A stretch of 63,693 bases of DNA, counting the filler, from Psammoneis japonica (lineage: Eukaryota): assembly GCA_008632985.1 (NCBI GenBank). It is 3 parts of 3 records of this genome, joined end to end, with 100 filler letters (N's around TTAATTAATTAA, not from the genome) between each part and the next. Parts side by side here need not be neighbours in the genome. Positions count along the whole stretch, not along the records: positions 1 to 28,450 come from QPGO01000406.1; 2 more parts are not named here. One strand, written 5' to 3'. The translations under genes and the position numbers were made by a program. Position 1 is the first letter of the stretch, and the number at the start of each line of letters is the position of its first letter. Positions 8,330 to 59,600 of this stretch are shown here, one piece after another. The notes under the pieces were generated by a model. It was not told the origin of the DNA. It was given only the letters and a program-made list of their open reading frames with translations, and did not search any database.

Positions 8330-9600
8330 GACTCAAGCCCCTGCTCTGACCCCTGTTCCGACTCTAGCTGCTGTTCCTGAATTTACCACCAAAGCTTTTG
8401 CTTCCACCGGGGCGGAAGATGGAGTTGCAGCTGTGGCCCCGGCTCAAGCTCCCATGACTCAAGCACCTGCTCCAACTCCAGCCACTGTTGCTGAAGCTGC
8501 AACTGCAGCTGCTGCCACTGAAGCTGCTTTTACTTCTGCCGGAGCTGCTGCAGCTCCAAATGCAATGATGCAAGATGGAATTGCAGCTGCGGCCCCGGCT
8601 CAAGCTCCCACAACTCAAGCACCTGCTCCAACTCTAGCTGCTGTTGCTGAAGCTGCAACTGCAGCTGCTGCCACTGAAGCTGCCACCGACACTTTTACTT
8701 CCGCCGGAGCTGCCACAGCTCCAAATGCAATGATGGAAGATGGACTTGCAGCTGCGGCCCCGGCTCAAGCTCCCACAACTCAAGCACCTGCTCCAACTCT
8801 AGCTGCTGTTGCTGAAGCTGCAACTGACGGGCTCCAGTCCCAGGTGGGACTTTTTGTGACATTTGCCCCGTGGAATTCTGCGTGCAAGCTCTGTGGTTCG
8901 CACTCTGGCCAATGGACATGTTCATCTTCAACATAAAATGAACGGCCAAGTTTGCAGTGCATGTGTCTCTGTCCGCACTCGAAGTTTTGGACAATGCGCC
9001 TGCCCCACTCCATTCTTAAGACACTTGAGAATGGCGCAGAAGAAAAAACATTAAAAGTTGTTGAATGGATCGCCTGACAATTGCACCATAAAATGATGCA
9101 AAATTTCGCCAAAATCACATGGAAATGTACATGCGCGACACACGACGCGAATCAAAAAACTGTCGATGTCACAGTTCAGCAGTGCAAGGTCCCACCTAGA
9201 CCTGGAATGCGTCAACTGTGGCAACTGCCACTGAAGCTGCCACCGACGCTTTTGCTTCTGCCGGAGCCACCACAGCTCTAAATGCAACGACGGAAGATGG
9301 AATTGCAGCTGCAGCCCCGGCTCAAGCTCCCACAACTCAAGCTCCCACAACTCAAGCACCTGCTCCAACTCCAGCTGCTGTTGCTGAAGCTGCAACTGTG
9401 GCCACTGCCACCGAAGCTGCCACCGACACTTTTGCTTCTGCCGGAGCTGCCACAGCTCCAAACGCAACGACGGAAGATGGAATTGCAGCTGCGGCCCCGG
9501 CTCAAGCTCCCACAACTCAAGCCCCTGCTCCAACTCTAGCCACTGCCACTGAAGCTTTCACCAACGCTTTTGCTTCCGCCGGCCCGGCTGAAGCTCCTGC
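8330..9600 (+). repeat. Coding tandem repeats (Ala/Thr/Pro-rich), interrupted by MITE copy 1
   Basis: Repeated 'EDGIAAAAPAQAPTTQAPAPTLAAVAEAATAAAATEAA' units lie on both sides of the 8827-9212 insertion. Confidence 0.85.
8827..9212 (+). mobile_element. MITE-like non-autonomous DNA transposon, copy 1
   Basis: Imperfect TIRs ACGGG(C/T)TCCAGTCC..GGTGGGAC / GTCCCACCTAGACCTGGAA.GCGT. 6-bp TSD caactg at 8821-8826 and 9213-9218. Three other copies occur in the window. Confidence 0.9.
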
Positions 9601-13271: not shown

Positions 13272-14158
13272 TGTCGAAAGACAGACGGCACCAGTTCATC
13301 GAACACCACCATGGAAACCGAAAACCATCCCACATGCAGACACACCAACAAACATGATGCACGCACGACAGGCAATTGGCGAAATTTTCGTTCATTGCTG
13401 TTGGCTGCGGCATGCAGGGCTGCCGCACAGTGCGAGGCAGCATGTCAAAGCAGAAGTTTGATTGCACACGAGGTGTTTCCCCTCTCATGAACATGTCCAA
13501 CCATTGCAAGGTGCAAATTGTCTGAAATTTTGATTGGCTACGAGCGAGCGAGCTAGACCGACGCACGATGGGCAGTTGGCAAAATTTTGATTGGCTGAGA
13601 GGCATTTCCCCGCATTGTGAACATGTGCAATTGTGAAAGGTGTTGATTTGGCTGCCCCCCACGCACGCGCCCCATCCAACCATCATGCATGCACAGAGTG
13701 CCTCTGCAGCACTGTGCAGTGCTAGAGAGCAGCAGGGCCCTGCTCTGCGCAGCAGCGCTGTGGCAGCTGGCTGCTTCTAGCAGAGACCAGCAAGCAGCAG
13801 AGACTGCTCTTCTCTGCTGGCTAGAGAGAGCAGAGCTGGCTGCTCCAGCTGCCACATCAGCATCAGACCCAAGACCCACCATGAGACAAAGCAAACGAGT
13901 GCATCAATCGATCCACCACACGCTCTGAGCATGTGCACCATGAGCATGGAACCGGCTTCTGCCGTGGTCCAGGAGGCAAATGACACGCCTTTGATCTCTG
14001 TGGGGCAGGAGTCGCACTTTGACACTCTTCTCATCTGCTTTGAGATGTCTTGTCGTGAGGTGGCGGCTCCGAGTGAGCAACTTGTGCCAACGTCTGAGTG
14101 TCCCAGCAGAAACCCCCCAAAAACCAACAACACCATGCATGGGAAAAAGGTGCTCACG

Positions 14159-14545
14159 ACGGGTTCCAGTCCTGGGTGGGACTTTTTGTGACATTTGCCC
14201 CGTAGAATTCTACGTGCGAGCTCTGCAGTTAGCACTCTGGTCAATGTGTGCACTTGTCTTCGACATTAAAAAAACGGCCAAGTTTGCAGTGCATCTGTCC
14301 CTGTCCGCACTCAAAGTTTTGGATGATGCGCCTGCCCTGCGCCATTCTTAAAACACTCGAGAATGGCGCAGAAGAAAAAAACATTAAAAGTTGTTCAATG
14401 GATGGCCTGACAATTGTGCTATAAAATTGTGCAAAATTTCGCAAAAATCACGTAGAAATGCACGTGCGCGACATGCGACGCGATTCAAAAAACTGTCGAT
14501 GTCACAGTTCAGCAGTGCGAGGTCCCACCTAGACCTGGAACGTGT
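14159..14545 (+). mobile_element. MITE copy 2 (least mutated)
   Basis: Same TIRs as copy 1. Flanks ctcacg / ctcacc (5/6 TSD match). Retains the internal palindrome CGTAGAATTCTACG. Confidence 0.9.
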
Positions 14546-20340: not shown

Positions 20341-21395
20341 TTCAACCAGTCAACTAACGCAATTTTAACTTCGCCAATGATTTCGCCAATTCCGCCATTT
20401 CACTGTCGTTCATCACCCAATTCAGATCGGGGTTAAACCTGTCGTCGTCGCCGCTGCTCTGGTCATTGCCAGCGGGATCAACAAATTGCTTCAGTGCATC
20501 GTTTTCTTGTTTGATGGACATGGTCCTGAACCGCAATGAGAAGGGGTGGGGGCCAGGGTCAGGGTTTGGGCAATGGGCAGTGGGCAAAGGCCAAAAAGAA
20601 AGGCCAAAGGGAAAGCGAAGCTAAGAAGGGAAAAGGAGACGGAAAAGGGGACAAGGAAGTGGGAAAGAGGGCCACAAATGACATCAAATGCAAATTTATT
20701 TAGCTGATTTTGTGGAAGAAAATGCAGACAAATGAACTGCAGAAAAGAAATGCAACATGAAAGATTCAAATGGAGGTTGGAGAGAGCAAGGAAGGAGCTC
20801 GAAAAGGAGCTGAAAATTCTGAAACAATTGAAGTGTCATCGTCAGTTCCAAGGGCATTGTTTGCAAGCTGGAGCTGGCTGGTGTTTCCAAACATTTGCAT
20901 GGCTGGACGGGAAAGAACCAGACCTTCATGGTGCTCTTGATTGAGTGTCTGAACTGTTGCATCATCTGGGCAAATGAAAACCTCATTGCCAGGAAACGGG
21001 CGTCGACGCTGGCATTGTCGCTGGCATTGCCAATGGCATTGTCGCTGGTGTTCAGGCACGGTGATCTGTGGTGGTCTTTGTTGGTGGCATTGCAGCTGGC
21101 AGGTGGCGCACATGATGGCGTTGACGCTGGCTCTGTGTTGAGAGTGGGACATGATGTTTGTTGTCTGAAGGTCATTGTGGCGGCGGATTGCTGCGATGAG
21201 CTGGGTTGTGGCTGCCACTGTTGGCGGCGCATGTCGCTGTGCGTGGCGTTGTCGGCAATGCATTCAAAAAGACAATGTGGTGCAGATGTCCTCACAGCAG
21301 CTCAAAAAATGGAGCAAAGATGTCTCAAAAAGAACGGTTTTGGGTTGAAGATGTGGGGGCTTCTGTGGAATTGGTTGAAGGGCGATTTTTCAAAA

Positions 21396-21766
21396 TGATT
21401 GTCAAAGGAAGACCACAGCCTGTGAGGCAAGCAAGAAGAGGCAGGAGGCATTTTTACAGTGCATGTGAAAGTGAAATGGAATGTTTTCGTTCATTGATCA
21501 AGGGATGGATGAGGAAGCAAGCTGTGGAGAAGCCGATGTTCAAGAAGCGGGCACGACTGTCTGTTGAAATGGAGCTTCATTTGACCCACTCAGGCAGTCG
21601 TGAGCCAGACTTGGACAATCTTTGCAAATTTGTGATGGACTTTGCCAATGGATTGGTTCACAATGACGACATTGATGTTGAAAAAATCTGCGCACGAAAG
21701 TTCAGCTGTGCTCCCAAGTCTGATGTTGGGAGCACCTTCTTTTTGGCGAAAAGAGCGGATCTTTAA
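21396..21766 (+). pseudogene. rusA: RusA-family Holliday junction resolvase (TpA-mutated, frame open)
   Basis: N-terminus 'IVKGRPQPVRQAR' and 'PDLDNLCKFVMDFANGLV(H)NDDIDVEKICARK' match the RusA catalytic motif PD.DN..K...D.L.G..(Y/W).DD..V. Confidence 0.8.
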
Positions 21767-21929
21767 ATTGCAGCATGCGGAGTTGAGAAGGAAAGGGCAC
21801 GTGCAAAGACAAGGTGAGAGCATCTTGCAAACTCGTTGCACATGAAAACACACAATTTGGTTTGCAAAGTCATTGTAGAAATCTGCTTTTGAGACAACAC
21901 GAAATGTGCACCGTCAGAGGTGAATGTAG

Positions 21930-22335
21930 AATTTGCCAGGGAAATGACTCACCCACAGACAAAGCAACACAGACATTTTGACACTGCCAAACAACAATTT
22001 TGTGAGCAAATGGGGAGGGAAATGAAACACCCATAGACAAACTGACACAGACGTTGCAACACCGCCAAACAAAATTTTTGTGAGCAAATGGGGAGGGAAA
22101 TGACACATCCATGGACAAACTTACACAGACATTGAGACACCGCCAAACAAAAATTTGGTGAGCATGTGGGGAGGGAAATGACACACCCACGGACAAACTA
22201 ACAAATACAAACTGACACTGCCAAACAAAAATTTTGTGATCACATGGGGAGGGAAATGACACACCCACATACAAACTAACAAAGACAAACTGACACACCC
22301 TCGGACAAAGCAACAAAGACAAACTGACACAGAAG
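21930..22335. repeat. Tandem array, ~78-bp unit, ~5 copies
   Basis: ttttgtgagcaaatggggagggaaatgacacacccat(a/g)gacaaact recurs at about 22000, 22079, 22157 and 22234. Confidence 0.85.
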
Positions 22336-22384
22336 CTGTAAGAGCTCATAACCTATTTGATGTAAAAGCTCATAACCTGTTTGG

Positions 22385-22510
22385 CACATGTGTGACATGT
22401 GCACACATGTGTGTGTGCATGCATGCACATTTTAGTGCCTGACCAAGCACCCAACCAAGTGCCTGACTAAGTGCCCAACTGAGTGCCCAACCAAGCACCT
22501 GACTGAGCAC
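22385..22510. repeat. Alternating purine-pyrimidine tract plus 12-bp minisatellite (6 units, inferred ancestor GTACCTAACTAA)
   Basis: gtgcctgaccaa gcacccaaccaa gtgcctgactaa gtgcccaactga gtgcccaaccaa gcacctgactga at 22435-22506. Confidence 0.9.
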
Positions 22511-23029
22511 ATCATGCACACTGCATTTGGGATGGGAGGGCTTGGGTTTGGGTTGTGAGGTGGCACGAAACGCTTCCGGTTGAATGACAGACCCCACCTG
22601 ATCGATGCCAAGTGGCCGCGGTTGAAGGACAGACCATGCCAAATGGGCTCGCACCCGCACCCATTTCTCGTCAACAGCCGACCTCATGGCGCGCATTTGC
22701 CAAAGCGATCAATGCAAATTTGCTCCTGTCGACGGACAGACCATGCCAAATGGGCGTGCACCCGCGCCCATTTCTCATCCTCAGTCGAGCTCAGGACAAG
22801 CCACTGCGCACATCGAATCAGCCAAGCATCATCCCCACATGTTGTGGCTGACAGCGTGGCTGCAAGCAACACCTGGAACAAGCAACTGAGTGCCAAAATC
22901 GCCACAAACCCAAAAAACAAAAAGCGGACAATGAGCATTGCGGGGCTCACAGCAATGCAGCCATTTTGAGGCTTCGATGCTCCCTGCGCACATTTTTGTG
23001 GTCAGCGCGTGTGCCCAACTGCCCAAGCT

Positions 23030-26000
23030 TCATTTTTGTTGTTTTTTGTTCCGCGGGTGGCTGCGCATTCTTTTTTTCTTTGACGAATTCGTTGGGGCGG
23101 GTGGGGGCTGTTGTGCCGCCACTCTTCCTGTCGGCGGCGTGTCCTTCTTTGGCTTGCTGGCATTCTTCATTTTTTCCTTTTCCTTTCTCTTTGACTCCAC
23201 TGCCTTCGCTCTTGCCGCCACCTTCCCCCCCCTTTTCTTGTCTGCCTCAACTCTCCTCCTCCTTGCCTGCTCCTTTCTTTCCTCCATTTCGGCCAGTGCA
23301 GCCGCCCTGCATTTCTTTGCGCCCGTTTTTGTCTCACAATCCGGAGTTGCTCCAACAACTCTGTTCCCCACATTCTTGTTTGGCGGCTCAGATGCTTTTG
23401 ACGGGGTTTTCATCTTGGCTGAAACTTTGGCAGCAGCCACAGCACTTGAGGGGTCGTCATCATCTGATGCGCCAATCTCCAATTCAGAGGATGAGGAAAC
23501 CAAATCCCTTCTCGCCCGTCTTCTCCTTGCAGCGGAGCGCGGCTCTTGCTCGACTCGACTCGGGAGGGAGCAACTGCTGTCGCTGTCGCTGCCGCTTGCA
23601 AGGGGTTCGTCGTTCGAATCTGCGCCGCTCCAAGCCACATCCATGTTTTGTTCGTCCTCTTCCACCTGTTGCTCAGGGTTTGCAGCAGATGGCTCCTCTT
23701 CATCTGCTTTGTCATTTCCTTGCCCCCCCTGTTGATGGTCGTTCTCCTCTGACACTCCGTCTCTGTCAGAAGTCGCTTTGTCATCTGGCGGCTGGCCGGT
23801 GCCCCCATCGCCCCCCTCATCTGAATGATCTTTCTTTTGTTCTTCATCTTGAGGGGGCGCGCAATCTCCGCCTTTGTCAGGGGTGTGATCTCCGTCTTTG
23901 TCGTCGTCGTCATTGTCGTTGTTGTCGCGTGTTTCACCCTCATCCTGCTCTGATGCCTCCTCCTCCTTCTCCTCTTCCTCACCCGATTGGGGTTGCCGGC
24001 TGCATCCTCGCCCACTTGTTGTGTGCTCCCATCTCTGTGCCGCAGGTCTGCCAAGGTGGTGTCGTCGTCGTCTCCCCCTTGCTGGTCCTCCACTGTGACC
24101 TCTGCTCGCGCCGCTTCGCCCTTCTTTGCCTGCTTTTTTTTCTTTTTTGCCTTCCTTTTCTCACTCTCTTCCTTCGCTCTGTCTTCCAACATCGTCTTTC
24201 TCATTTTGTCCTCGTTCTCCAGTCTTTCCTTCTTGAGTCCATTGCGCGCTGTGCCGTCGCACGCCCGCGGCACTGCCTTGCTGAAGTTCTTGTGAATCAA
24301 GTCGCGCTCGTGCTCAAATCGTTTCTTTGTCTCTTTGTCTTCATCAAAAAGAGTTTGGAAATTCCGGCAGTCGACCACCCTTGGAGATGTGCCTTGCGCT
24401 CAGTTCATCGCGTCTTTGCAGGTTTGATGGGTGGCTCCGAATGTCTGCTCCGATTCCTGCTCTTCAGGTGCAAAAGCGTCCTCCTCGTCTTGGCTGTTCA
24501 ATCCTCTGAAGTGAATCTGTTCCTTCGCATCCTTCGCTGTCAGATTTGAGTTGCTTTGCAGGTGGCAGATCGCTGTTCCAAGAGCCGCCTGTGTTTGACA
24601 GGTCCTGACGCACTCTTGTTGCAACTTCACGAAAGCCTCCTGTCGGCTGTGGTCTGCGTCCAGGGTGTTGTCCAGTGCGCCACTGACAGACTTGCGCATC
24701 TCGGAATTCTTGCTCCACTTCGCTCTCTTGCGCTTTCTTTTCACGGCAGGTTTTGCAGCAGTTTCTTTGTCGGGCTCGCCCTCATTGTCCCTTTTCCTTT
24801 TCTTGCTCTGTCTCGATTTCCCCACCACCTCAGCGAGTCTCTTGTTTGGCTCTTCCAGCCATTTCTCGAGCCTTTGGTGGCTGAGCTCGACTCTGTCTGA
24901 AACAGCCACATCGCACACATCGCTCATGCCTGCCACGCAAATCTCCCCAGTCAATTCCTTCAAGGTCAACTTGGCATGCTTTGCATTTCCTGTGTGGAAA
25001 CAATCACCAAACATGTCAGACGGGGACCGCAAAATGGATGCGTTGGTGCTCCGATCCTGCAAACAATCTGACGCACAGACAGACAACACCAAATCGGTGC
25101 AATGGCGCGTCGACTCCGCAGAGCATTGCCGGTGATGACAGACCGTGCGATGCAGAGACGACGTGGCATCGATTTCTTGGTCACACTCACCGCTGCCCTT
25201 CTCGACTGGATCGATTTGAAATTTGGGAACAAAGTCTTCGGTGGAGACTGTTTTCTGGTTTGCCTCATTGGACAAAACGTTCCCTGGCTCTTCCAGGTGT
25301 TCGATCAGAGAGAGCAGTTTGAGGCTCTTCTTCTTTGTCAACCATTCGCAAATGAGCACAGCCATCTGAGGCATGTTTGTGACTTTCTCTGGACAGTTTG
25401 TGTCGTCGCGAAACATCAATTCATGAAAGGGCTCCTCGCTCAATGCCTCCTGTTCGTCATCGTTGAGACCAGGCATTTCTTCGGGAAGCATTGCCTTGAA
25501 AAGAAATGTTTTGTGATTTTCTACACCAGCATCCAACCAACATTTGTTGACGGGGATCACATCTCCGAAGCGACAAAGTGCCTCCATTGTTGCCTTTCCG
25601 GCACAGGCCAGCAACTTTGGATGCAGGTTTTTGTCGGTTCACCTCCCTCTTCCGCACTGCACCATTTTTGTCATCGTCAAACCAAGGATGACCTCTGTTT
25701 TGATGTGGACATCAAAGACACACAGCGCGGCTTTGGGCAAACCGCTCTTGGAAACATCGGCTTCATTGAGATTTGCAAAAATTCCCTTCAAAAAGAAAAG
25801 AAAAGAAATTTGGTTGTCAGGCACATGACCAAACAATTCGCGGTTTTCACTTGTCATGTGTTCCGTTGCTCTGACACTCACCGAGCACAATTTGCCCTTT
25901 TTCGTTCCCTGCAATGTTGGGGGAAAGGAGTGATTGAGCAAATGTCAAGCACCGTTTCTCGAAGAATGAAGTCATGGCGGGCTCCCAAAGCAAGGAATTG

Positions 26001-28427
26001 TCTTGCCATGTGCCCATCATTGTCAGCGGTTTCCGCCTTCAGGAACTCCGTTGACAGGCCCATCGCCTCTCCCTGTGCGTTTTCAGCCAAATTGTTCAGC
26101 ACTGTGCAGCTGCGAAGGACTTTTCCTTCTTCTCCTTCTCCCAACTCCGTTGCAAACAAGACTCGCAATCCCTCCGGCAGGGTGGGCTCAGATTGGCGGG
26201 ATCTTCTGATGATGCGTTCCAGCCCCAGGTGGGGCTCCGTGTGACATTGGGCCCGCAGAATTCTGCGTGCGAGCTCCGCAGCACAAGAATTCAATCAATG
26301 GACACACTTGTCTTCAACGTCAAACAAACGGCCAAGTTTGTGGCACAATTGTGCCTCTCACCACTCGACGTTTTTGCAAATGCACCTGCCCCACGCGATT
26401 CTCAAGACATCGCAGAATCGTGCTGCAACAAAAAATGTCAAAAGTTTTTGGACGGATCGCTCAACAAGCACACCGCAAAATGACACAAAACATCAAAAAA
26501 TCACGTAGAATTCTGCGTGCGCGACATGCGACGAGATTCAAAAAACTGTCGATGCCACAGTTCAGCAGTGCGAGGTCCCACCCAGACCTGGAACGCGTCT
26601 GATGACTTGCTTCAGCATTTCGGCGGACTGGCTGTAAAAAACAAAATTCGTGGACAACATCATTGGCCCGGCAATGCTGGCCCTTTCTCTCGTCGGCTTT
26701 GTGCTGTTGTGCAACCCAGGACATTTCCTTTCACGCAAGGTTTGGGTCATTGCATCGGCGAACTTTCCTGCTTTGTCAACATCACCACCCAGCTTGAGGT
26801 TCCTGTTGGTGTCCTCCCTTGCCTTTTGAACCACGGCCTTTGCAGATTCGCAATTGGAAGTGAGCAGATGCTTGAGCACCACTTTCCCAAGTTTCTCGCG
26901 CGCTTCAATGTGCTTGACGCTGTCGCTGCCTTTCTCCTCCAGTTGCATCGCCTCCTCATCTGTGACCAACTTCCTGCATCGCAGCTCACCCAACATCCAT
27001 TTGTGCGTGTTCAGTTGCGCGTCGTCCTCAAAGCTTTGCCTTGAACCTGATGTGGTGTCGGCTTGGATGACCTCGCTGTGTCTTTTGCAGAGGAACAAAC
27101 TTCTTTCCCCAAACAAACCAAGCTTGATGTGCGGTTGGGATTTTTCTTCAACGCACGGTTGTTCACAGTTCAATTTTTTCCCCAACAACTCACTGAATTG
27201 CCTTGGGGGAAACATCTGCGTCAGTGCCAGGTCAACGCCCAACACGCGGCACTGTCCATCGAGGAAGGAGTTCCAAATGGCTGCAGCTGCTTGTGACATC
27301 AGCTTGCATTCCAACATGAGAACAGATTTGTTGCGTGTCGTCTTGTTCTTGTGGTGTGCGAAAGGGGCGAAATTTGCATTTTGAATGATGAAAGTTTGGC
27401 ACAAGATGTTTCGCAATCTTTTGTGCAAGGATTCAAAATCAGCCATCTTCCTCAAAGAATTGTGTTGTTGACCCAAAAGCACATGAAGTGTGCATGTCAG
27501 GAAAAGTCCCTTCTGCCGACTGTTCCAGTTGTCTTTCACATTTGTCGATTGCGCCCTTGTGCCCGCATTGTCACCCTCCATCTTGGCGTGTGTGAGCAGT
27601 GCAAACAGCCCGAGCGCGTGTTCCTTGGCAACAAAAAATGCGCCGGCATTGCTCGAACTTGGTTTGCTGTGATCACGGCAGAGCTCATGAGCCGGAAGCA
27701 CCTTTCCAAATTTTGCAGTTTGATGTGTGACCAAGTGGGGCGTCACTGTGTGCGGCACAATGTTGAATGATTTGCTGGAAAGCCCATGCGCACTCTGCAA
27801 AGTCCCCACATGGTTCTTGTCAGAGACAGGCGCAAGCGGGTTGCAATCTGGGTTGTAGATCTTTTCGTTGTTGGCATGCCTTTGGTTGACATCTGGTTGA
27901 CTGAGAGGACACATGGCTGCAACATCGCGGTTTCTTGCACAAGTCACCCCCGCGAACAGAGAGATGACCACCGGACTGACGTTTGCATTGACCCTGTTGA
28001 AGTGATCTCCCATGTCTGCCCCCTTTTCTCTGTTGTTCTTTCGTTTGTTCATCAGTTTTTCCCAATCTTCGTTGGTGAATTCCTCCAGTTTGAAGGGGAC
28101 ACCTTTCGACAGGGGACATGACGGCGGCTTCAATTTCTTGAAGCACTCGTCATCTGATTTCACATCCCCCATCGGACTCTTTGGCGCTGTTGCGTCCTTC
28201 ACGATCACTTTGCCACAAATGACCCTGAAAATGGTGTGCACCTGCTCCGCTGTCAATTCTTCATCAATCGGCGAGATTTTGTTGTGGGCTGCTGCCACAC
28301 ACCCTGGACTGCCCATCTCTTGCAACATCAAGGTTCCCACCAAATTTCCAATTGCACATTCTTCGCCGACCAGGTCTTTCATCATTTCCCTGTCATCCTC
28401 GCTGATGGCTGCGCAGAATCTCAACAC
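23030..28427 (-). pseudogene. Large decayed protein-coding region of unknown function, interrupted by MITE copy 3
   Basis: Successive protein-like minus-strand ORFs (26562-28427, 25878-26205, 24400-25614, 23410-24378, 23030-23755) with an acidic/basic low-complexity C-terminus. No family recognised. Confidence 0.5.
26212..26598 (+). mobile_element. MITE copy 3
   Basis: TIRs ATGCGTTCCAG / CTGGAACGCGT. Perfect 6-bp TSD ctgatg at 26206-26211 and 26599-26604. Confidence 0.92.
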
Positions 28428-31599: not shown

Positions 31600-34380
31600 C
31601 GCAGCATGAAGTCAAAAAAGGAGGTCCGAAAGACGACAAAACAAACAAATGGCTAAGCCCAGTCTTAGAGAGTTATGACAAAACTGTGAAAAAACACCAG
31701 CTTGATTCCCAGATGAAGGTGGATAGATGCAAAAATCGACACTGCTCACCGAATGGAATGTGCTGAGTGACGAAACCCCGGCCAGTCGCGCGATGCTTTG
31801 CACCTCCGACAACAGTTTGTGACATGCAGTTTGCCTTGGTCTGGATGTGGAAAATGAAGTGAAGGGTCCACCTCTTGTGAATGCATGAAATGTCTCTCAC
31901 AAACTCTGCCACCAACCTCTTTCAAAGCCAAGCATGGCAAAAAGAGGAATGGCCAGGCCACTGTCTTCCAAAATTGCGACACAGTGTTTTTTTTGGGGGC
32001 ACGGAGTCACCTCTTTCGTCTTCTGGAGGAAGAATTCAAGGCCCTCTGTGGACAAGCTGGCAATTTCCAACACTGCCTTGGAACCTTTTTCTTGTCCTGT
32101 GCAGTTGACGTGCCAGCTCAGGACACGCGTGATTGCAAAATGTTTCCTGGATTGCTCGCCAAAGAAGAAGAGCATTCATCATTTTGGAAGCTGATCTGCA
32201 ATGTAGACGAAAGTTAGAGATCTAGCAAATGAGCTGGAAAGTCTTTCTGGAGGAAGCTTGAGGAATGCCTCAATCAACTTGCAGCTGAGATGCGTTCCAG
32301 CTCCAGGTGCGGTGGGAGCTCGCAGTGCTGACGTGTGACACAAATGATTTTTGTCATCTGTCACATGTTTTGCACACACATTTCTGCGTGTGACATTCAA
32401 AAAAAACATCCAGACTCACTGTTTTGCAAATCCCCAGATGTTTCACATGCAACAAATTCATGGAAACAACAACGCGTTTGAAGAATGTAACTGGCCAAGC
32501 AAAAAAATGATGCACTTCAATCATGGACGAGTTTGTGCACTCGCAAAATTGCCTCATTTTCTGTTGGTGATCATTGACATTTTCATTGCCTCACAATTTT
32601 GCTGTGGAGCTTGCACATGGAGTTCTAAAAGGCCCAATGTCACATGGATTCCCACCTGCATCTGGAACGTGTCCTGAGCTTTTTGCAGAGGGAATGAAAG
32701 AAAAGACACAAGTCACTGTCGACGACGACAAAGTGCATCATCATGTCACACAACAAGTCAAAGGCAACAAGCCCAAGCTGGCACAATGTGCCAGGGACAA
32801 TGCAAGAAGAAGCTTTGTGATTGATGCAGCAATGCACACAGCAACTGGTGTCCCAACTGGCTTTGGTGTTCAGGGAAAGAATGACACCACAGCGACCAGT
32901 GCAAAGCGGATGCCAAGAAATGCCTCTTTGCACCCAACAATGGTGGAAGCGAGCAACGGCACCTCACAAATGTTGAGTGTGACTTTGACCACAGCAACAC
33001 CAGCTTTGAACTTGTGTTTGATGTCCTGGAGCTTGGCGGGTTGCTTGGTGCCAACACAATCAAACGCTCTGACTGGTTTCCATTTGCGTGCTGCCAGAAA
33101 TTAGGGGAAGGGGATGCACGCACTTTGGGGCCAATGGTTGGACCAAAAATTCTTCTCCAGAAATCCTGCAAAGCCACCAAGCTGAATGTGGAATTGTTTG
33201 CAAATGCCTGCAGAAATGGCAACCAAGCTGTGACAATGGCATTGTCAAGTGCTCATTCAGGCCTGCATTTGCCACCAACCGACTGCTTGTGCCACTGAGA
33301 AAAGCATCTCAATCCATCTTGCGTGCCACCGGCATTGATGTGGCTGCATTGGAATGGGTCCAACAGTGTGCAAGAGTGAGCTGCAATTGTGCACAACACA
33401 CCATTGATGTGACAAGAGGAGTCTCACATCAAAGAGCTGAGCCGCATGCGCTGCTGAATGAAAACAAGTTGCCCAAAAGGCAGATTTGGGCCCGTGTGCA
33501 AGAGCTTGGAGGAAGCAGCGGTGGAAAGGCAATCAGTCCCATCAAAAACAAACTCAAACAGCAGATTCATGCACTCACTGACAAATGCCTGCACATTTTG
33601 AAGAACAGGACGGAGGTTGCACAAGAAGCAAGACCTTGCCTGCATGGCTGCAGTGCCACAAGAAAATCAGAAGATGACATCACAGCTGCTCTCATCAACA
33701 AGGACAAGGCAGAAGGAGGACATCATTGCATGGAGCCAGTGGACAAAATGCAGCTCACACTGCATCAGAGCAACTGTTTCAATCTGCACTCCTTCCCAAG
33801 CTTGCGGGAAAGTCTCTTGAGAGCTGCCAAAGAGGTCATCATCTTGAGCCTGTGTTTGCAAAGAAGATGGCGGCAGACTCAGATGCCGGCAAAACACCAT
33901 TTCAATTGTTGTCCACACATGAGGCTGGAATGATTTGCAAGAAATGAGAGGAAGCTGTCAAGGACTCAGTTGATTTTCTTGCAACAGCAATGGCAAATGG
34001 CACAAAAATGGCAGTTGGACTGGAGATGAAGCTTTGTGCAGCTTCAAGCAGAGAACAACAGGAGCAACTGCTTTTGTTGTCAGCAGAGAACAAAACCTCA
34101 GAGGCAACATTGTCTGAGTGTTCTGTGATTGGCTTGAATGATGGAACACTCAACAATGACCATGTTCATGAAGCACACAAAGCAGTGCAGAGGCTGCACC
34201 ACAGCTGGCTGCACCTGCAACCTGGATTGCATGTTGGTCCAATTGTTGGTGGCAACAATGGAGACATCATGCGTGGGATGTTTGTCAGGTTTGATGACAG
34301 TGTCAAGAAAGCGTGCGCAAGATTCTTTGCTCTCTTTGCAAATTTGCACTGGAATGGATCTGCAACTCAGACAAAACCAA
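31600..34380 (+). mobile_element. Heavily decayed DDE DNA transposase relic (piggyBac-like, tentative)
   Basis: 'VTVDDDK' acidic motif, 'FD(HSN)...GANTIKR' resembling DRGY...GT.KR, and a C-terminal Cys cluster. TpA-depleted. Confidence 0.3.
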
Positions 34381-37400: not shown

Positions 37401-40400
37401 AGATGCACCCACACACGCAGCATGCCAATGGGCTGACAGCACACACAAGGCATGACTGCTCACCAATCTTTGCTCCAACCTGACGCATGACATTGCAGCC
37501 CAATGCGACGCTTTGTCCTGTGGCGACACCTTGATCTGTCTTTGGAAATGGGCAAGCTGATGCAACAAGGACCACACAGAACAAAGCCGCCACCACATCA
37601 AGACCACCATGCAGGAACCACCTCATTTGGAAGACAATTTCAAGACCATCCTCTGTGACATTGTTGAAGCCCACATCAATGCTGCACAATGCACCCACAA
37701 GGGGACAGACATTCCTGATGGTTGCAACACACCAGCCGAGATCCCACAATTGACACCAGACAAGGACAAGGGTGCCATCATGCACCCATTGTGACGAGCC
37801 AGTCAAAGAACTCATTGCTGGCATTGACCACAGGACCCAGTGGGCTTGTTCCACTCTGTCAATGTGACATGTTCCGTCATCAGCAACGTGTCATCCCTCA
37901 AGGCACGCGTGCTTTTGGGACAGGCCCGAGGTGACCAACCATCACTCATCTCTGATGGCGGTGCTGACACTGGGGTGTTCAGACAAGGCAAACCCAATTG
38001 GTTTCTATGAGTCTCATGCACGTGTCAATGGTCTGGACATCACTGGCAGCATCACTGTGATGGACTCACCAGACAGATCTGTGGTGCTGCTTGCTGTGCA
38101 CGAGGGCACAGCCAACCCCACCCCATCCTTCTTGTCATTGTTGGAATGCCAGTGTCAAGAAGCAGGTTGCGTCATTGATTTGGTCCCCCATCACCACCTG
38201 AGTGCAGCCGGCCACCGTGGTGCCCAACGTTTCACCACACCCAATGGCATCATCATCCCCTTCTCAACCCATGGCATGCTCATGGCCATCCCACATCACT
38301 TGCCCTTGGATGACAAACTCCACGAGACAACTCCCATCAACATCACTGCATCTGGAGTGTGGAACCCCACAGAGCACTGTGCTGATGCCCAAGATCCTGA
38401 TCTGGGTTCAGTTGCAGCACAACTTCCATCCACTCATGCCACGTGGGGTGATGTGCCAGATTGCAGCAACCTCAAAGAGGCCACTGCAACACACATCAAG
38501 AACATTGATGATGCCGATTCCCTCCCTGCTTTGATTGGCTGTGGAGCTGACAATGACAATGACAGTGCTGTCAGCTCCAGCAGCTCCATCCCAGAACTTG
38601 TCATCCACAACAATGATGATGATGACAACACTGTTGAATCCAACATTGCCCCAGAAGATGCCTCTGTGCCCCCACTTGAGAGCCAACTGGATGGACCGGA
38701 CAACCATGGAAGTGAGGTGCAACAAGAAGATGGGAACAACCCACAGGATGACAAATGTCCATCCCCAGTCTGTGCACAAGGGACAACAGCTTTGTAGAAT
38801 CCAACAAGAGCAGACCTCTGGACTCACCTCATGAGTCAAGACAACAAGCATGCTCTGCCAATGTCACACCTCTGGATGACATCAATGATCCACCCTCACC
38901 AATGGATGAGGAGTTCCATGATTGCCTTGTCAATTTGGAAGAGGCGAGATTGCAGACCCCATCATTGGCATTGAACTCCAGTTCACAGACAAATTGCTGC
39001 TGGATCAATGAGACACGCCAACACATGATGACACTGAGACATCAGCATTGGTCCAGACCAAGCCCCAGTGCTTCTTCAATGCATTGGAACAAATGCCGAG
39101 AAGATGCAAGCGTGCATTCCACCTGACCATGGAGTGCGCACACACTGCAACCATCAAAGAATGGGGTCTTGATGAACACTTGGACTCTCTGGAGGATGAC
39201 AAACCATTTGGCAAGCACGCGCCATTTGACTCCTTTGCATGTGCCACTCAGGTGGCCCAACGCTCATTCACCAAATCCGAGTTGGATGCCCTGCATCCCA
39301 AGTTTGCATGTCGACCAAGAAAGGTTGTCAAACTGACCATGGAAGCCATGACACAACTGCAAAGTCACACTTTCATGTGCCCCTCCAGCAACATTTGAAG
39401 GCACGGCACCCACAATTGAACCACGTGAGACTGCCTTGAGGAGATGGCAGTGACTGACACCTGCTTTGCCGGTGTCAAAAGCCTCTCAGGCTGTTCATGC
39501 GGACAGGTCCATTGGGGAACATCATCCCACATGACTGGCTTCCACTCCATGAAAGAGTCCAAGCTTCCACCCACACACAAGGACTTCATGCACAAGGAAG
39601 GAGCCCCACAGATCCTCCATTGCGACAATGCCAAAGCACAAAAGTCCAAAGTTGTCACTGATCTCAATCGCAAGTTTGCAGCTGGTGACCAGTTCACAGA
39701 GCCACATCATCCACACCAAAATCCCACGGAATTGCACACCATCAAATGTCTGAAAACACATTCCCAAACAGTCATGGACAGTGCCAGTGCATCTGGCATT
39801 GCGTGGCCCAAATGCTGTGCATGCGTTGCCGCTGCACACAATGTCACCACCAATGAGACCCTGGGCTGGTCCACACCCCTCCAAACATGACATGGAGACA
39901 CCCCCAACATGTCTCCGCATTCCTCAACTTTCATTTCTGCCAGAAGCCACCACATCTGGACATGACTCTGCCATTTTCCCATGGCTGTGAACTTCCTGGG
40001 CACTGGTTGGCAAACCAAATGTTGGAGATGCCCTCACCTGCAAGATCCTCACCAATGACAACAAGCAGATCATGTCATGATCCGTTGTCCAACCCTGTGA
40101 CCCCAATCATGATTGCAAATCCATGAGTGTCATTCAACCCCATTGTGGACCCCACCTTCCTTGACAATGAAGACAAACAAGATGCCTTGGACCCCAACAC
40201 ATGCGCCATCAATGGCAGTCACATCCCCACTCTGCATTGCAGTGACAAGCACATCCCCCCATCAAAAAAGTGGACAAGGCCACATTCCTCCCTCCAAAGA
40301 AGAAGAAAAGCCACCAAGAACCCAACAGACCTTGATGCGAGTCAACCCCTTGGAGGGACAGGGGAGCGCTGATGCACCCACAAATGCACCAATGCTCCAA

Positions 40401-58548: not shown

Positions 58549-59600
58549 TGTCCTTTCAAGGAAAACAAGCATGTTTTCCTTGAAAAGACATGTTTGTTTT
58601 CCTTAAAAAGACATGTTTGTTTTCATTGAAAAGACATGTTTGTTTTCCTTGAAACCACATGTTCGTTTTCCTTGAAACAACACGTTTGTTTTCCTTGAAA
58701 AGACACATTTTTTTTCCTTGAAACAACACGTTTGTTTTCCTTGAAAAGACATGTTTGTTTTCCTTGAAACGACATGTTTGTTTTCCTTGAAAAGACGTGT
58801 TTGTTTTCCCTGAAAAGACACATTTGTTTTCCTTGAAAACACATGTTTGTTTTCCTTGAAACAACGTGCTTGTTTTCCTTGAAAAGACATGTTTGTTTTC
58901 CTTAAAAAGACATGTTTGTTTTCAAGACATGTTTGTTTTCCTTGAAACCACATGCTTGTTTTCCTTGAAACGACGTGTTTGTTTTCCTTGAAAAGACATG
59001 TTTGTTTTCCTTGAAATGACGTGTTTGGACGTGTTCCAGCTCTGGGTGGGACCTCGCACTGCTGAACTGTGACACAATTGTTTTTTGTCATCCGTCGCAT
59101 GTTTCGCACGCACATTTCCACGTGTTCCATTATAAAAAATTGTTCCACACTGCCTGTTTTGCGAAGCCAAAGGCTTTCTGTTATCTGCACTTGTGTCAAT
59201 GAAAATGCACTGGGCATGTTCTTTAATGTCTAAAGAATGTGCCCGGGCACACTGTAAAGAATGTGCTTCAAGTGTGGAGGAGGAGATGCGTTCGCAAAAT
59301 TGCCTCTTTTTCTGTTGGCGATCATTCATGCATGCATTGCTTGACAATTTTACTGCGGAGCTCGCACGTAGAATTCCACGGGCCCAATGTCACAAAAAGT
59401 CCCACCTGGGACTGGAACCTGTCTTTGTTTGTCTTGAAAAGACACGCTTGTTTTCTTTGGAACAACATGTTTGTTTTCTTTGAAACGACGTGTTTGTTTT
59501 CCTTTAAAAGACACGCTTGTTTTCCTTGAAAGAACATGTTTGTTTTCCTTGAATTGACATTTTTGTTGAAATGACACGTTTGTCTTTCTTAAAACAACAT
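58549..59600. repeat. 23-bp satellite (gtttgttttccttgaaaagacat)n, split by MITE copy 4
   Basis: About 20 units before and 7 units after 59029-59422. Confidence 0.95.
59029..59422 (-). mobile_element. MITE copy 4 (inverted, more diverged internally)
   Basis: Both ends are the reverse complement of copies 1-3; the TSD is degenerate (gtttgg/ctttgt). Confidence 0.85.

What the first reader, a model, noticed from the sequence alone, without database searches (positions are those of the whole stretch)
22385..22510. Minisatellite and former (TA)n tract showing near-saturation of the mutator
Six 12-bp units have three variable dinucleotides each. Of these 18 sites, 17 are TG or CA in mixed order, one is TA and none is CG, while all other positions are invariant. 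The simplest ancestor is GTACCTAACTAA. The adjacent tract cacatgtgtgacatgtgcacacatgtgtgtgtgcatgcatgcacat looks like a (TA)n microsatellite turned into a TG/CA mosaic. One hit per site destroys the target, which explains the lack of CG.
Basis: partly seen in the sequence, partly recalled or inferred. Interest (0 to 1): 0.7.

Follow-up and report, generated by a model that had tools for sequence, protein, structure and literature searches.

The report
Simple repeats stripped of TA steps
Two tiny tandem repeats in a diatom genome have had almost every TA step rewritten, one at a time, to TG or CA, a local record of a mutation process aimed at repeat DNA that has so far been described only in one unrelated alga.

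Summary
Six 12-bp units (22435-22506) have 18 variable sites (TG 9, CA 8, TA 1, CG 0). The tract (22385-22429) has 22 TG/CA steps and no TA or CG. Such a mosaic alone cannot tell TA from CG ancestry, so I tested direction. In 20 copia copies, at 28 columns where outgroups have Tyr, the copies read Cys 238, His 99, Tyr 156, Arg 1. LTR pairs differ mostly at TA. TA is lost about 15 times faster than CG. The neighbouring element keeps 31 of 47 CG sites, against 0 of 18 in the array. The repeats therefore record a DNA-level TpA>TpG/CpA mutator: both strands, hits not strand-coordinated, products no longer targets, sites 5'-TAY preferred. No unmutated copy of the array was found, so the exact ancestor is inferred (about 0.7). 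The enzyme is unknown; adenine deamination in silenced chromatin is my best guess. The same spectrum is in a 2026 Bigelowiella natans preprint. This scan noted the process many times before on other DNA of this genome.

The parts
22385..22429 (.). TG/CA mosaic tract, (YR)5-A-(YR)17; inferred former TA-rich microsatellite
   Evidence: Paralogs on C343/C47 and C502 have the same layout with different TG/CA order and no CG or TA inside.
22433..22434 (.). Surviving TA in the slow context TTAG; the C343/C47 paralogs have CA here
   Evidence: context ranking
22435..22506 (+). 12-bp minisatellite, six units, 18 variable sites (TG 9, CA 8, TA 1, CG 0)
22468..22469 (.). The one surviving TA of the array, context CTAA, one of the slowest classes
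   Evidence: residual ratio 0.25 for CTAA against 0.026 for GTAC and 0.005 for ATAT
22337..22383 (+). 24-bp duplication left of the tract keeping a cluster of TA steps (22339-22373: 5 TA); the C502 paralog has CA at some homologous sites
21938..22331 (+). 78-bp satellite and a 34-bp duplication upstream; part of the same duplicated locus; used for a low estimate of CG retention (3 of 8)
22510..23494 (+). End of a dispersed repeat (at least 25 places in G000); internal control with CG-type sites (31 of 47 kept in this copy) and TA-type sites
21200..21766 (+). RusA-family frame inside the same TA-poor block; His or Cys at some positions where its one homolog has Tyr
   Evidence: PF05866, E 5e-10

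Best explanation
The two repeats are passive recorders with no function of their own. They began as a TA-rich microsatellite and a 12-bp array with TA at its three variable sites, inside a duplicated repeat locus in a block of repeat DNA (taken to be silenced). A DNA-level mutator converts TpA to TpG or CpA, which is one event (A>G, equally T>C) on either strand. SHOWN: the direction is TA>TG/CA; it acts after insertion, on both strands with no strand bias; hits are independent; a hit site stops being a target; it is about 15 times faster than CpG decay in the same elements; it is about twice as fast at 5'-TAY as at 5'-TAR; genes are spared; one LTR and the leader of an element can be spared while the twin LTR is hit. 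INFERRED: that these particular 40 sites were TA (about 0.7 for all three array sites); that targeting follows silenced chromatin rather than sequence homology; that the chemistry is adenine deamination to hypoxanthine fixed by replication (about 0.5), by an unidentified enzyme.
For: Direction: at 28 columns with Tyr in at least 80% of 120 outgroup proteins, 20 copia copies have Y 156, C 238, H 99, R 1, while conserved Arg is 96% kept. About 48 Arg would be expected if products stayed targets. Post-insertion: 19 LTR pairs differ by TA/CA 61, TA/TG 60, TG/CA 41, CG/TG or CG/CA 39, other 24. Rate: in element bodies 911 of 1696 TA-class and 389 of 7738 CG-class observations are mutated. Local control: the flanking element keeps 31 of 47 CG sites, the array 0 of 18 (Fisher P 5e-7). 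Window against the C343 paralog: 25 TG/CA differences, about 6 expected from CG decay alone (my arithmetic). Both surviving TAs in the finding are in slow contexts. Symmetric contexts give TG 111, CA 105 (P 0.73). Genome sample: 61 of 180 one-kb windows have TA O/E below 0.2, 110 above 0.4. The same spectrum arose de novo in B. natans mutation-accumulation lines.
Against: No unmutated copy of the array was found. The sister array has CA at site 1 in 5 of 5 units and TG at site 3 in 4 of 4, which suggests unit re-amplification after mutation or native CA/TG, so units are not fully independent trials. One column of the upstream satellite shows all four states, so a single TA does not prove TA ancestry. 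Pure microsatellites do not discriminate: (TA)10+ at 3 loci, (CG)10+ at 1 locus. C343 and C47 differ at 15 CG-type sites but at none of 24 remaining TAs, so the mutator was inactive or blocked there lately. No read-level check was obtained, and no enzyme is identified.
Confidence: 0.72

Rival explanations
1. Mixed ancestor. The mutator is real, but the array's site 2 was CG (or some sites were natively TG/CA), for example a remnant of a Pro-Thr-type coding repeat; some tract steps were native TG/CA.
For: Unrelated arrays matching the same pattern carry all four states (CG 183, CA 160, TG 111, TA 50 over 72 loci). Read by eye in one frame, the window array gives (C/H)(P/L)T(K/E), like YPTK/YPTE-type repeats among those hits. 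The sister array is uniform at sites 1 and 3. Mixed YR tracts with native TG/CA occur in unmutated DNA of this genome.
Against: Site 2 keeps CG in 0 of 6 window units and 0 of 5 paralog units. Local CG retention of 0.66 or 0.375 gives P 0.0015 or 0.06 for the six window units alone. That frame starts right after a TAG and lies between a microsatellite and a dispersed repeat; one search lists no frame of 120 aa or more across the array. None of the 72 outside hits shares flanks with the locus.
Confidence: 0.2
2. Plain CpG decay: the ancestors were a CG-bearing 12-mer and a (CG)n tract, methylated and deaminated to TG/CA.
For: CpG decay is real in this genome's repeats: CG O/E averages 0.30 in TA-poor windows, and CG-type sites vary in the flanking element. 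It predicts the same TG/CA mosaic.
Against: CG is kept at 31 of 47 sites next door, against 0 of 18 and 0 of 22 here. A TA at a CG site needs a second hit that was seen 0 times at 521 CG columns in 19 copia copies. TA loss is about 15 times faster than CG loss.
Confidence: 0.04
3. Same footprint, other chemistry: the lesion is on T (oxidation or another thymine modification at TpA that miscodes as C), or an error-prone polymerase fills gaps in silenced DNA.
For: TpA is palindromic, so A>G and T>C cannot be told apart from sequence. The deaminases found look like ordinary housekeeping types.
Against: A polymerase-eta-like process (WA motif, patches on one strand; recalled) should also hit AA and give strand-coordinated clusters. 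A>G at AA is 122 of 11274 against 153 of 16529 at GA, and there is no coordination at 6-2000 bp. No TET/JBP match, but the control rang nowhere, so that search is uninformative.
Confidence: 0.35
4. Artefact: a modified base at TpA is misread by the sequencer or polymerase, and the assembly fixes a random letter.
For: No reads were laid on the locus.
Against: Contigs C343 and C47 agree at every TG/CA step over 3055 aligned bases, tract included (0 TG/CA or TA-type differences). Random miscalls would not do that. One public DNA run holds 0.54 of the sampled 31-mers of 21200-23400, but it may be the source sample, so I do not count it as independent.
Confidence: 0.04

Closest known systems
TpA hypermutation of integrated NCLDV and virophage DNA in Bigelowiella natans (Mettrop et al., bioRxiv 10.64898/2026.01.13.699255; read parts 1-3 of 5: abstract to conclusion, not methods; supplements not seen)
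   Same: A>G/T>C confined to TpA, giving TpG or CpA; regional; TpA-poor, TG/CA-rich clusters with transposon domains; enzyme unknown, A-deaminase proposed.
   Different: Here a diatom, and the targets include microsatellite, minisatellite, satellite and LTR elements. Loss runs to saturation (TA O/E 0.05 in TA-poor windows, about a third of the sample), against Rho 0.45 in the B. natans NCLDV region. The paper's main text has no mention of diatoms, tandem repeats or context. Rate per generation and intermittency were measured there, not here.
Repeat-induced point mutation (RIP) of ascomycetes (recalled; mentioned as an analogy)
   Same: Dinucleotide-specific transitions that saturate repeats on both strands and spare genes.
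   Different: Opposite polarity: RIP is C>T and makes TpA; this destroys TpA. One LTR can be spared while its twin is hit, which fits homology-triggered targeting poorly.
Methyl-CpG decay in silenced DNA (recalled)
   Same: Gives the same TG/CA mosaic, acts in the same repeats, and covaries across copies (Spearman 0.80 in element bodies).
   Different: Different ancestral site (Tyr, not Arg, at the affected codons) and about 15 times slower.
ADAR-type A-to-I editing of retroelement or viral RNA; TadA/ADAT2 tRNA A34 deaminases (recalled)
   Same: A>G with a 5' U/T neighbour. The preference for a 3' pyrimidine recalls the UAC target of TadA (recalled).
   Different: Changes fall on both strands equally, differ between the twin LTRs, and hit repeats with no RNA stage, so they are made on DNA.

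Membership tests
B. natans-type TpA hypermutation | Direction T:A to C:G | tested here: met
   Outgroup Tyr columns read C 238, H 99, Y 156, R 1
B. natans-type TpA hypermutation | Restricted to TpA | tested here: met
   911 of 1696 at TA-class sites against about 1% at AA and GA
B. natans-type TpA hypermutation | Both TpG and CpA products (both strands) | tested here: met
   TG 111, CA 105 in symmetric contexts; TG 21, CA 18 in the finding
B. natans-type TpA hypermutation | Regional: foreign or mobile DNA hit, host genes spared | tested here: met
   Bimodal TA O/E in the window and in 180 kb of genome sample
B. natans-type TpA hypermutation | De novo rate about 1000 times background; active in only some lines | not testable with these tools
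   Needs mutation-accumulation lines. 0 of 24 TAs changed between C343 and C47 is only a hint of intermittency.
B. natans-type TpA hypermutation | Same enzyme or homologous pathway | not testable with these tools
   Enzyme unknown in both organisms; an ADAT2-like exon exists in G000 (label from motifs, recalled)
Fungal RIP | C>T transitions that enrich TpA | tested here: not met
   TA O/E 0.05 in TA-poor windows; direction reversed
Fungal RIP | Both copies of a duplication targeted by homology | tested here: inconclusive
   TA in the 5' LTR only 79, in the 3' LTR only 20, at 11 sites in 19 pairs; fits chromatin targeting better but does not exclude homology plus local protection
Fungal RIP | RID/DIM-2 dependence, premeiotic timing | not tested
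   No search made
Methyl-CpG decay | Ancestral dinucleotide CG at the variable sites | tested here: not met
   0 of 18 CG against 31 of 47 next door; 0 of 14 in the paralog. Indirect, since no unmutated copy was found.
ADAR-type RNA editing of retroelements | Sense-strand-only A>G, copied into both LTRs | tested here: not met
   No strand bias; twin LTRs differ
Polymerase-eta-type WA mutagenesis | AA also hit; strand-coordinated clusters | tested here: not met
   AA at background; no coordination at 6-2000 bp. The family's features are recalled.

The most novel reading that the evidence does not exclude
Diatoms and chlorarachniophytes share an undescribed, chromatin-guided DNA adenine-editing defence. 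It deaminates A in any 5'-TA(Y) inside silenced domains, whatever the origin of the DNA (virus, transposon or plain microsatellite), is kept out of promoter-like regions in a switch-like way, and here has rewritten about a third of a genome. One of this genome's deaminases, for example the second editase-domain gene or the ADAT2-like gene, would be a natural double-stranded-DNA adenine editor.
Probability: 0.3. Interest if true: 0.88.

Novelty: new member of a known kind. Interest (0 to 1): 0.6.

Why it matters
The 126-bp feature itself does nothing, but it shows that the process also hits simple tandem repeats, not only foreign or mobile coding DNA. A second, distant lineage with the B. natans spectrum, run to saturation, suggests a widespread RIP-like defence of opposite polarity. 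The measured signature (TpA only, 3' pyrimidine preferred, independent hits, promoter end spared) gives assays for finding the enzyme, which might be a natural DNA adenine editor. In practice, LTR dating and gene prediction are misled in such genomes: TA loss inflates LTR divergence and removes TAA/TAG stops, so dead DNA keeps long open frames.

Tried and rejected
Unmutated copies: exact degenerate searches of G000 found only the window array and one sister array on C343 and C47; five other single matches were not arrays. Metagenome (69) and viral (3) matches to the unit pattern share no flanks with the locus, so they say nothing about its ancestor. Strand coordination: none in the array (10 same-state neighbours, null 7.5, P 0.16) or in 16 of the 17 tract steps (8, null 7.1, P 0.43). 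None in 19 copia copies at 6-2000 bp; the 2-5 bp bin gave 92 of 163 against 81.9 (P 0.05, one of five bins). The microsatellite census did not discriminate TA from CG ancestry. The RusA search gave only one homolog, too few for a direction test. None of 120 outgroup copia proteins shows the Tyr>Cys/His signature (at most 2 of 28 columns); they were the best-scoring intact hits of 1424, so this does not show absence in other diatoms. The TET/JBP search was uninformative. No RNA holder listed. The protein atlas gave only generic editase clusters for the second A_deamin gene. Literature: five searches found only the B. natans preprint as relevant; the other papers were seen as search listings only; most subscription papers are outside this library.

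Full report
Observation. Six 12-bp units at 22435-22506 have three variable dinucleotides each (TG 9, CA 8, TA 1, CG 0) and six invariant columns. The tract at 22385-22429 is five TG/CA steps, one A, and seventeen TG/CA steps, with no TA or CG. All six units differ from each other. Adjacent units differ at 11 of 15 site comparisons, against 39 of 276 in 69 unrelated metagenome arrays of the same pattern.

Setting. A gene in an unmutated part of the window has 105 homologs, and every species name legible among them is a diatom. The window has TA O/E 0.16 overall: mostly 0.0-0.3 in repeat blocks and mostly 0.35-0.7 in three gene islands, where CG is near 1. In 18 ten-kb stretches from large contigs (20 asked, 2 absent; not a random sample), 61 of 180 one-kb windows have TA O/E below 0.2, 110 are above 0.4 and 9 lie between. 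TA-poor windows have TA 0.05, CG 0.32, TG 1.74, CA 1.77. The finding lies in a locus (21403-23494) with paralogs on C343 and C47 and a partial one on C502. These have the same tract layout with a different TG/CA order. C343/C47 also carry a sister 12-bp array, separated from the tract by a 390-bp element with inverted ends. None has CG inside the tract or array. Flanking sites show TA directly: C343/C47 have TA at the left edge where the window and C502 have TG, and the window has TA at the right edge where C343/C47 have CA.

The logical gap. A TG/CA mosaic arises from TA (by A>G on either strand) or from CG (by C>T on either strand), and in both cases one hit removes the target. The mosaic alone does not give the direction. 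I tested it three ways.

First, proteins. I took 20 of about 145 listed copies of a copia family, chosen for long open frames and so biased to young copies, and aligned them with the best 120 of 1424 outgroup homologs. At 28 columns where outgroups have Tyr in at least 80% of rows, the copies read Tyr 156, Cys 238, His 99, Arg 1, Phe 40, Trp 20. Conserved Arg is 96% kept. If the products stayed targets, about 48 Arg would be expected among the 494 Y/C/H/R observations. This shows both the direction and the one-hit rule.

Second, LTR pairs. The 19 copies with a detectable pair differ by TA/CA 61, TA/TG 60, TG/CA 41, CG-type 39 and other 24, so the changes are made on DNA after insertion. In element bodies 911 of 1696 TA-class and 389 of 7738 CG-class observations are mutated, a rate ratio of about 15. 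This is an underestimate, because fully saturated TA columns were excluded.

Third, the local control. Stacking 23 loci of the dispersed repeat right of the array gives two site classes. The window copy keeps CG at 31 of 47 CG-class sites, against 0 of 18 in the array (P 5e-7). With the lower retention of the upstream satellite (3 of 8) the chance is 2e-4 for the array and 3e-5 for the tract. Window and C343 differ by TG/CA at 25 sites, where their CG counts (41 shared, 43 lost in one) predict about 6 (my arithmetic).

Context. Residual TA relative to unmutated DNA is lowest for ATAT (0.005) and GTAC (0.026) and highest for TTAA (0.36) and CTAA/TTAG (0.25). Read as A>G on the strand bearing the A, the relative rate is 0.57-0.58 with a 3' pyrimidine and 0.25-0.31 with a 3' purine. 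This fits the finding: a (TA)n tract is the fastest class and is fully converted, while both survivors (22433 TTAG, 22468 CTAA) are in slow classes. One survivor among 12 CTAA sites is compatible with 0.25 (P 0.16).

In the array and tract, same-state neighbours are at chance (P 0.16 and 0.43). In 19 copia copies, against within-column permutation, z is -0.14, -1.17, -1.55 and -0.44 for 6-20, 21-60, 61-200 and 201-2000 bp, and 1.69 for 2-5 bp. Symmetric contexts give TG 111 and CA 105. Hits are therefore single and independent, not processive.

Targeting. In 10 of 19 copies a 470-bp leader keeps nearly all of its 39 TA sites (1-5 hit); in the other 9, 15 or more are hit, in mixed states. At 11 LTR sites, TA survives in the 5' LTR only 79 times and in the 3' LTR only 20 times. 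TA loss and CG loss covary across copies (Spearman 0.80). I infer that the mutator follows silenced chromatin and is kept out of promoter-like DNA. No chromatin data were seen.

Enzyme. G000 holds dCMP-deaminase, TadA-like, ADAT2-like, RibD-like and other small deaminases, one deaminase fused to a 2OG oxygenase, and two editase-domain (PF02137) genes with no extra Pfam domain in the exons scanned (the finer labels are my reading of motifs, recalled). None is shown to act on DNA. Adenine deamination is my preferred chemistry because strict TpA with a 3' pyrimidine recalls tRNA A34 deaminases (recalled). Because TpA is palindromic, a thymine lesion fits equally well. A polymerase-eta-like process fits badly: AA is at background and there are no clusters.

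What stays open. No unmutated copy of the array was found. The sister array is uniform at two of three sites, so slippage after mutation or native CA/TG is possible. Arrays of this pattern elsewhere carry all four states. Pure (TA)10+ occurs at 3 loci and (CG)10+ at 1. C343 and C47 differ at 15 CG-type sites but at none of 24 remaining TAs. No reads were laid, though the agreement of C343 and C47 at every TG/CA step argues against miscalls.

Comparison and verdict. The spectrum matches that reported for integrated viral DNA of Bigelowiella natans (bioRxiv 10.64898/2026.01.13.699255; parts 1-3 of 5 read, supplements not seen), whose main text does not mention diatoms, tandem repeats or context. 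Five literature searches found no diatom report. It works like RIP but is not RIP (opposite polarity). Earlier notes of this scan describe the same process, the TAY preference and LTR sparing on other DNA of this genome. I took the paper lead from them and tested the rest here. Verdict: real; a local record of a TpA hypermutator; new member of a barely known kind; interest 0.6.

Noticed in passing
L104-L123 (copia copies from G000), alignment columns 290-760: All-or-none sparing of a 470-bp leader behind the 5' LTR: 10 of 19 copies have 1-5 of 39 TA sites hit, the other 9 have 15 or more; the edge lies near column 770-810. In one copy the 3' LTR is the spared one.
   Followed up: partly
window 22339-22373: Five surviving TAs within 35 bp directly left of the fully converted tract, mostly kept in the C343/C47 paralogs too: a possible protected footprint.
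   Followed up: no
L026 against L027 (C343, C47): Near-identical copies differ at 15 CG-type sites and 3 others but at none of 24 TAs: a hint that the TA mutator is episodic or that the survivors are shielded.
   Followed up: partly
L138:2672-4385 and L137:2935-4472: Two editase-domain (PF02137) genes; one would be expected for ADAT1 (recalled), so the second is a candidate worth testing.
   Followed up: partly
L128:313-1785 (-): One open frame joins a TadA-like zinc deaminase domain to a DIOX_N/2OG-Fe(II) oxygenase.
   Followed up: no
window 8817-9214, 14158-14542, 26210-26597, 32282-32673, 59028-59418: Copies of a roughly 390-bp element with inverted ends; the C343/C47 paralogs carry two copies within the homologous locus.
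   Followed up: partly
G000, one search list: About 145 listed copies of one copia family, many with open frames over 1000 codons; the 20 examined have lost most Tyr codons. TA loss removes TAA/TAG stops, so dead DNA looks coding.
   Followed up: partly
window 39429-39887: Present at 100% protein identity on two contigs (C70 and C408): a haplotype duplicate or redundant assembly.
   Followed up: no
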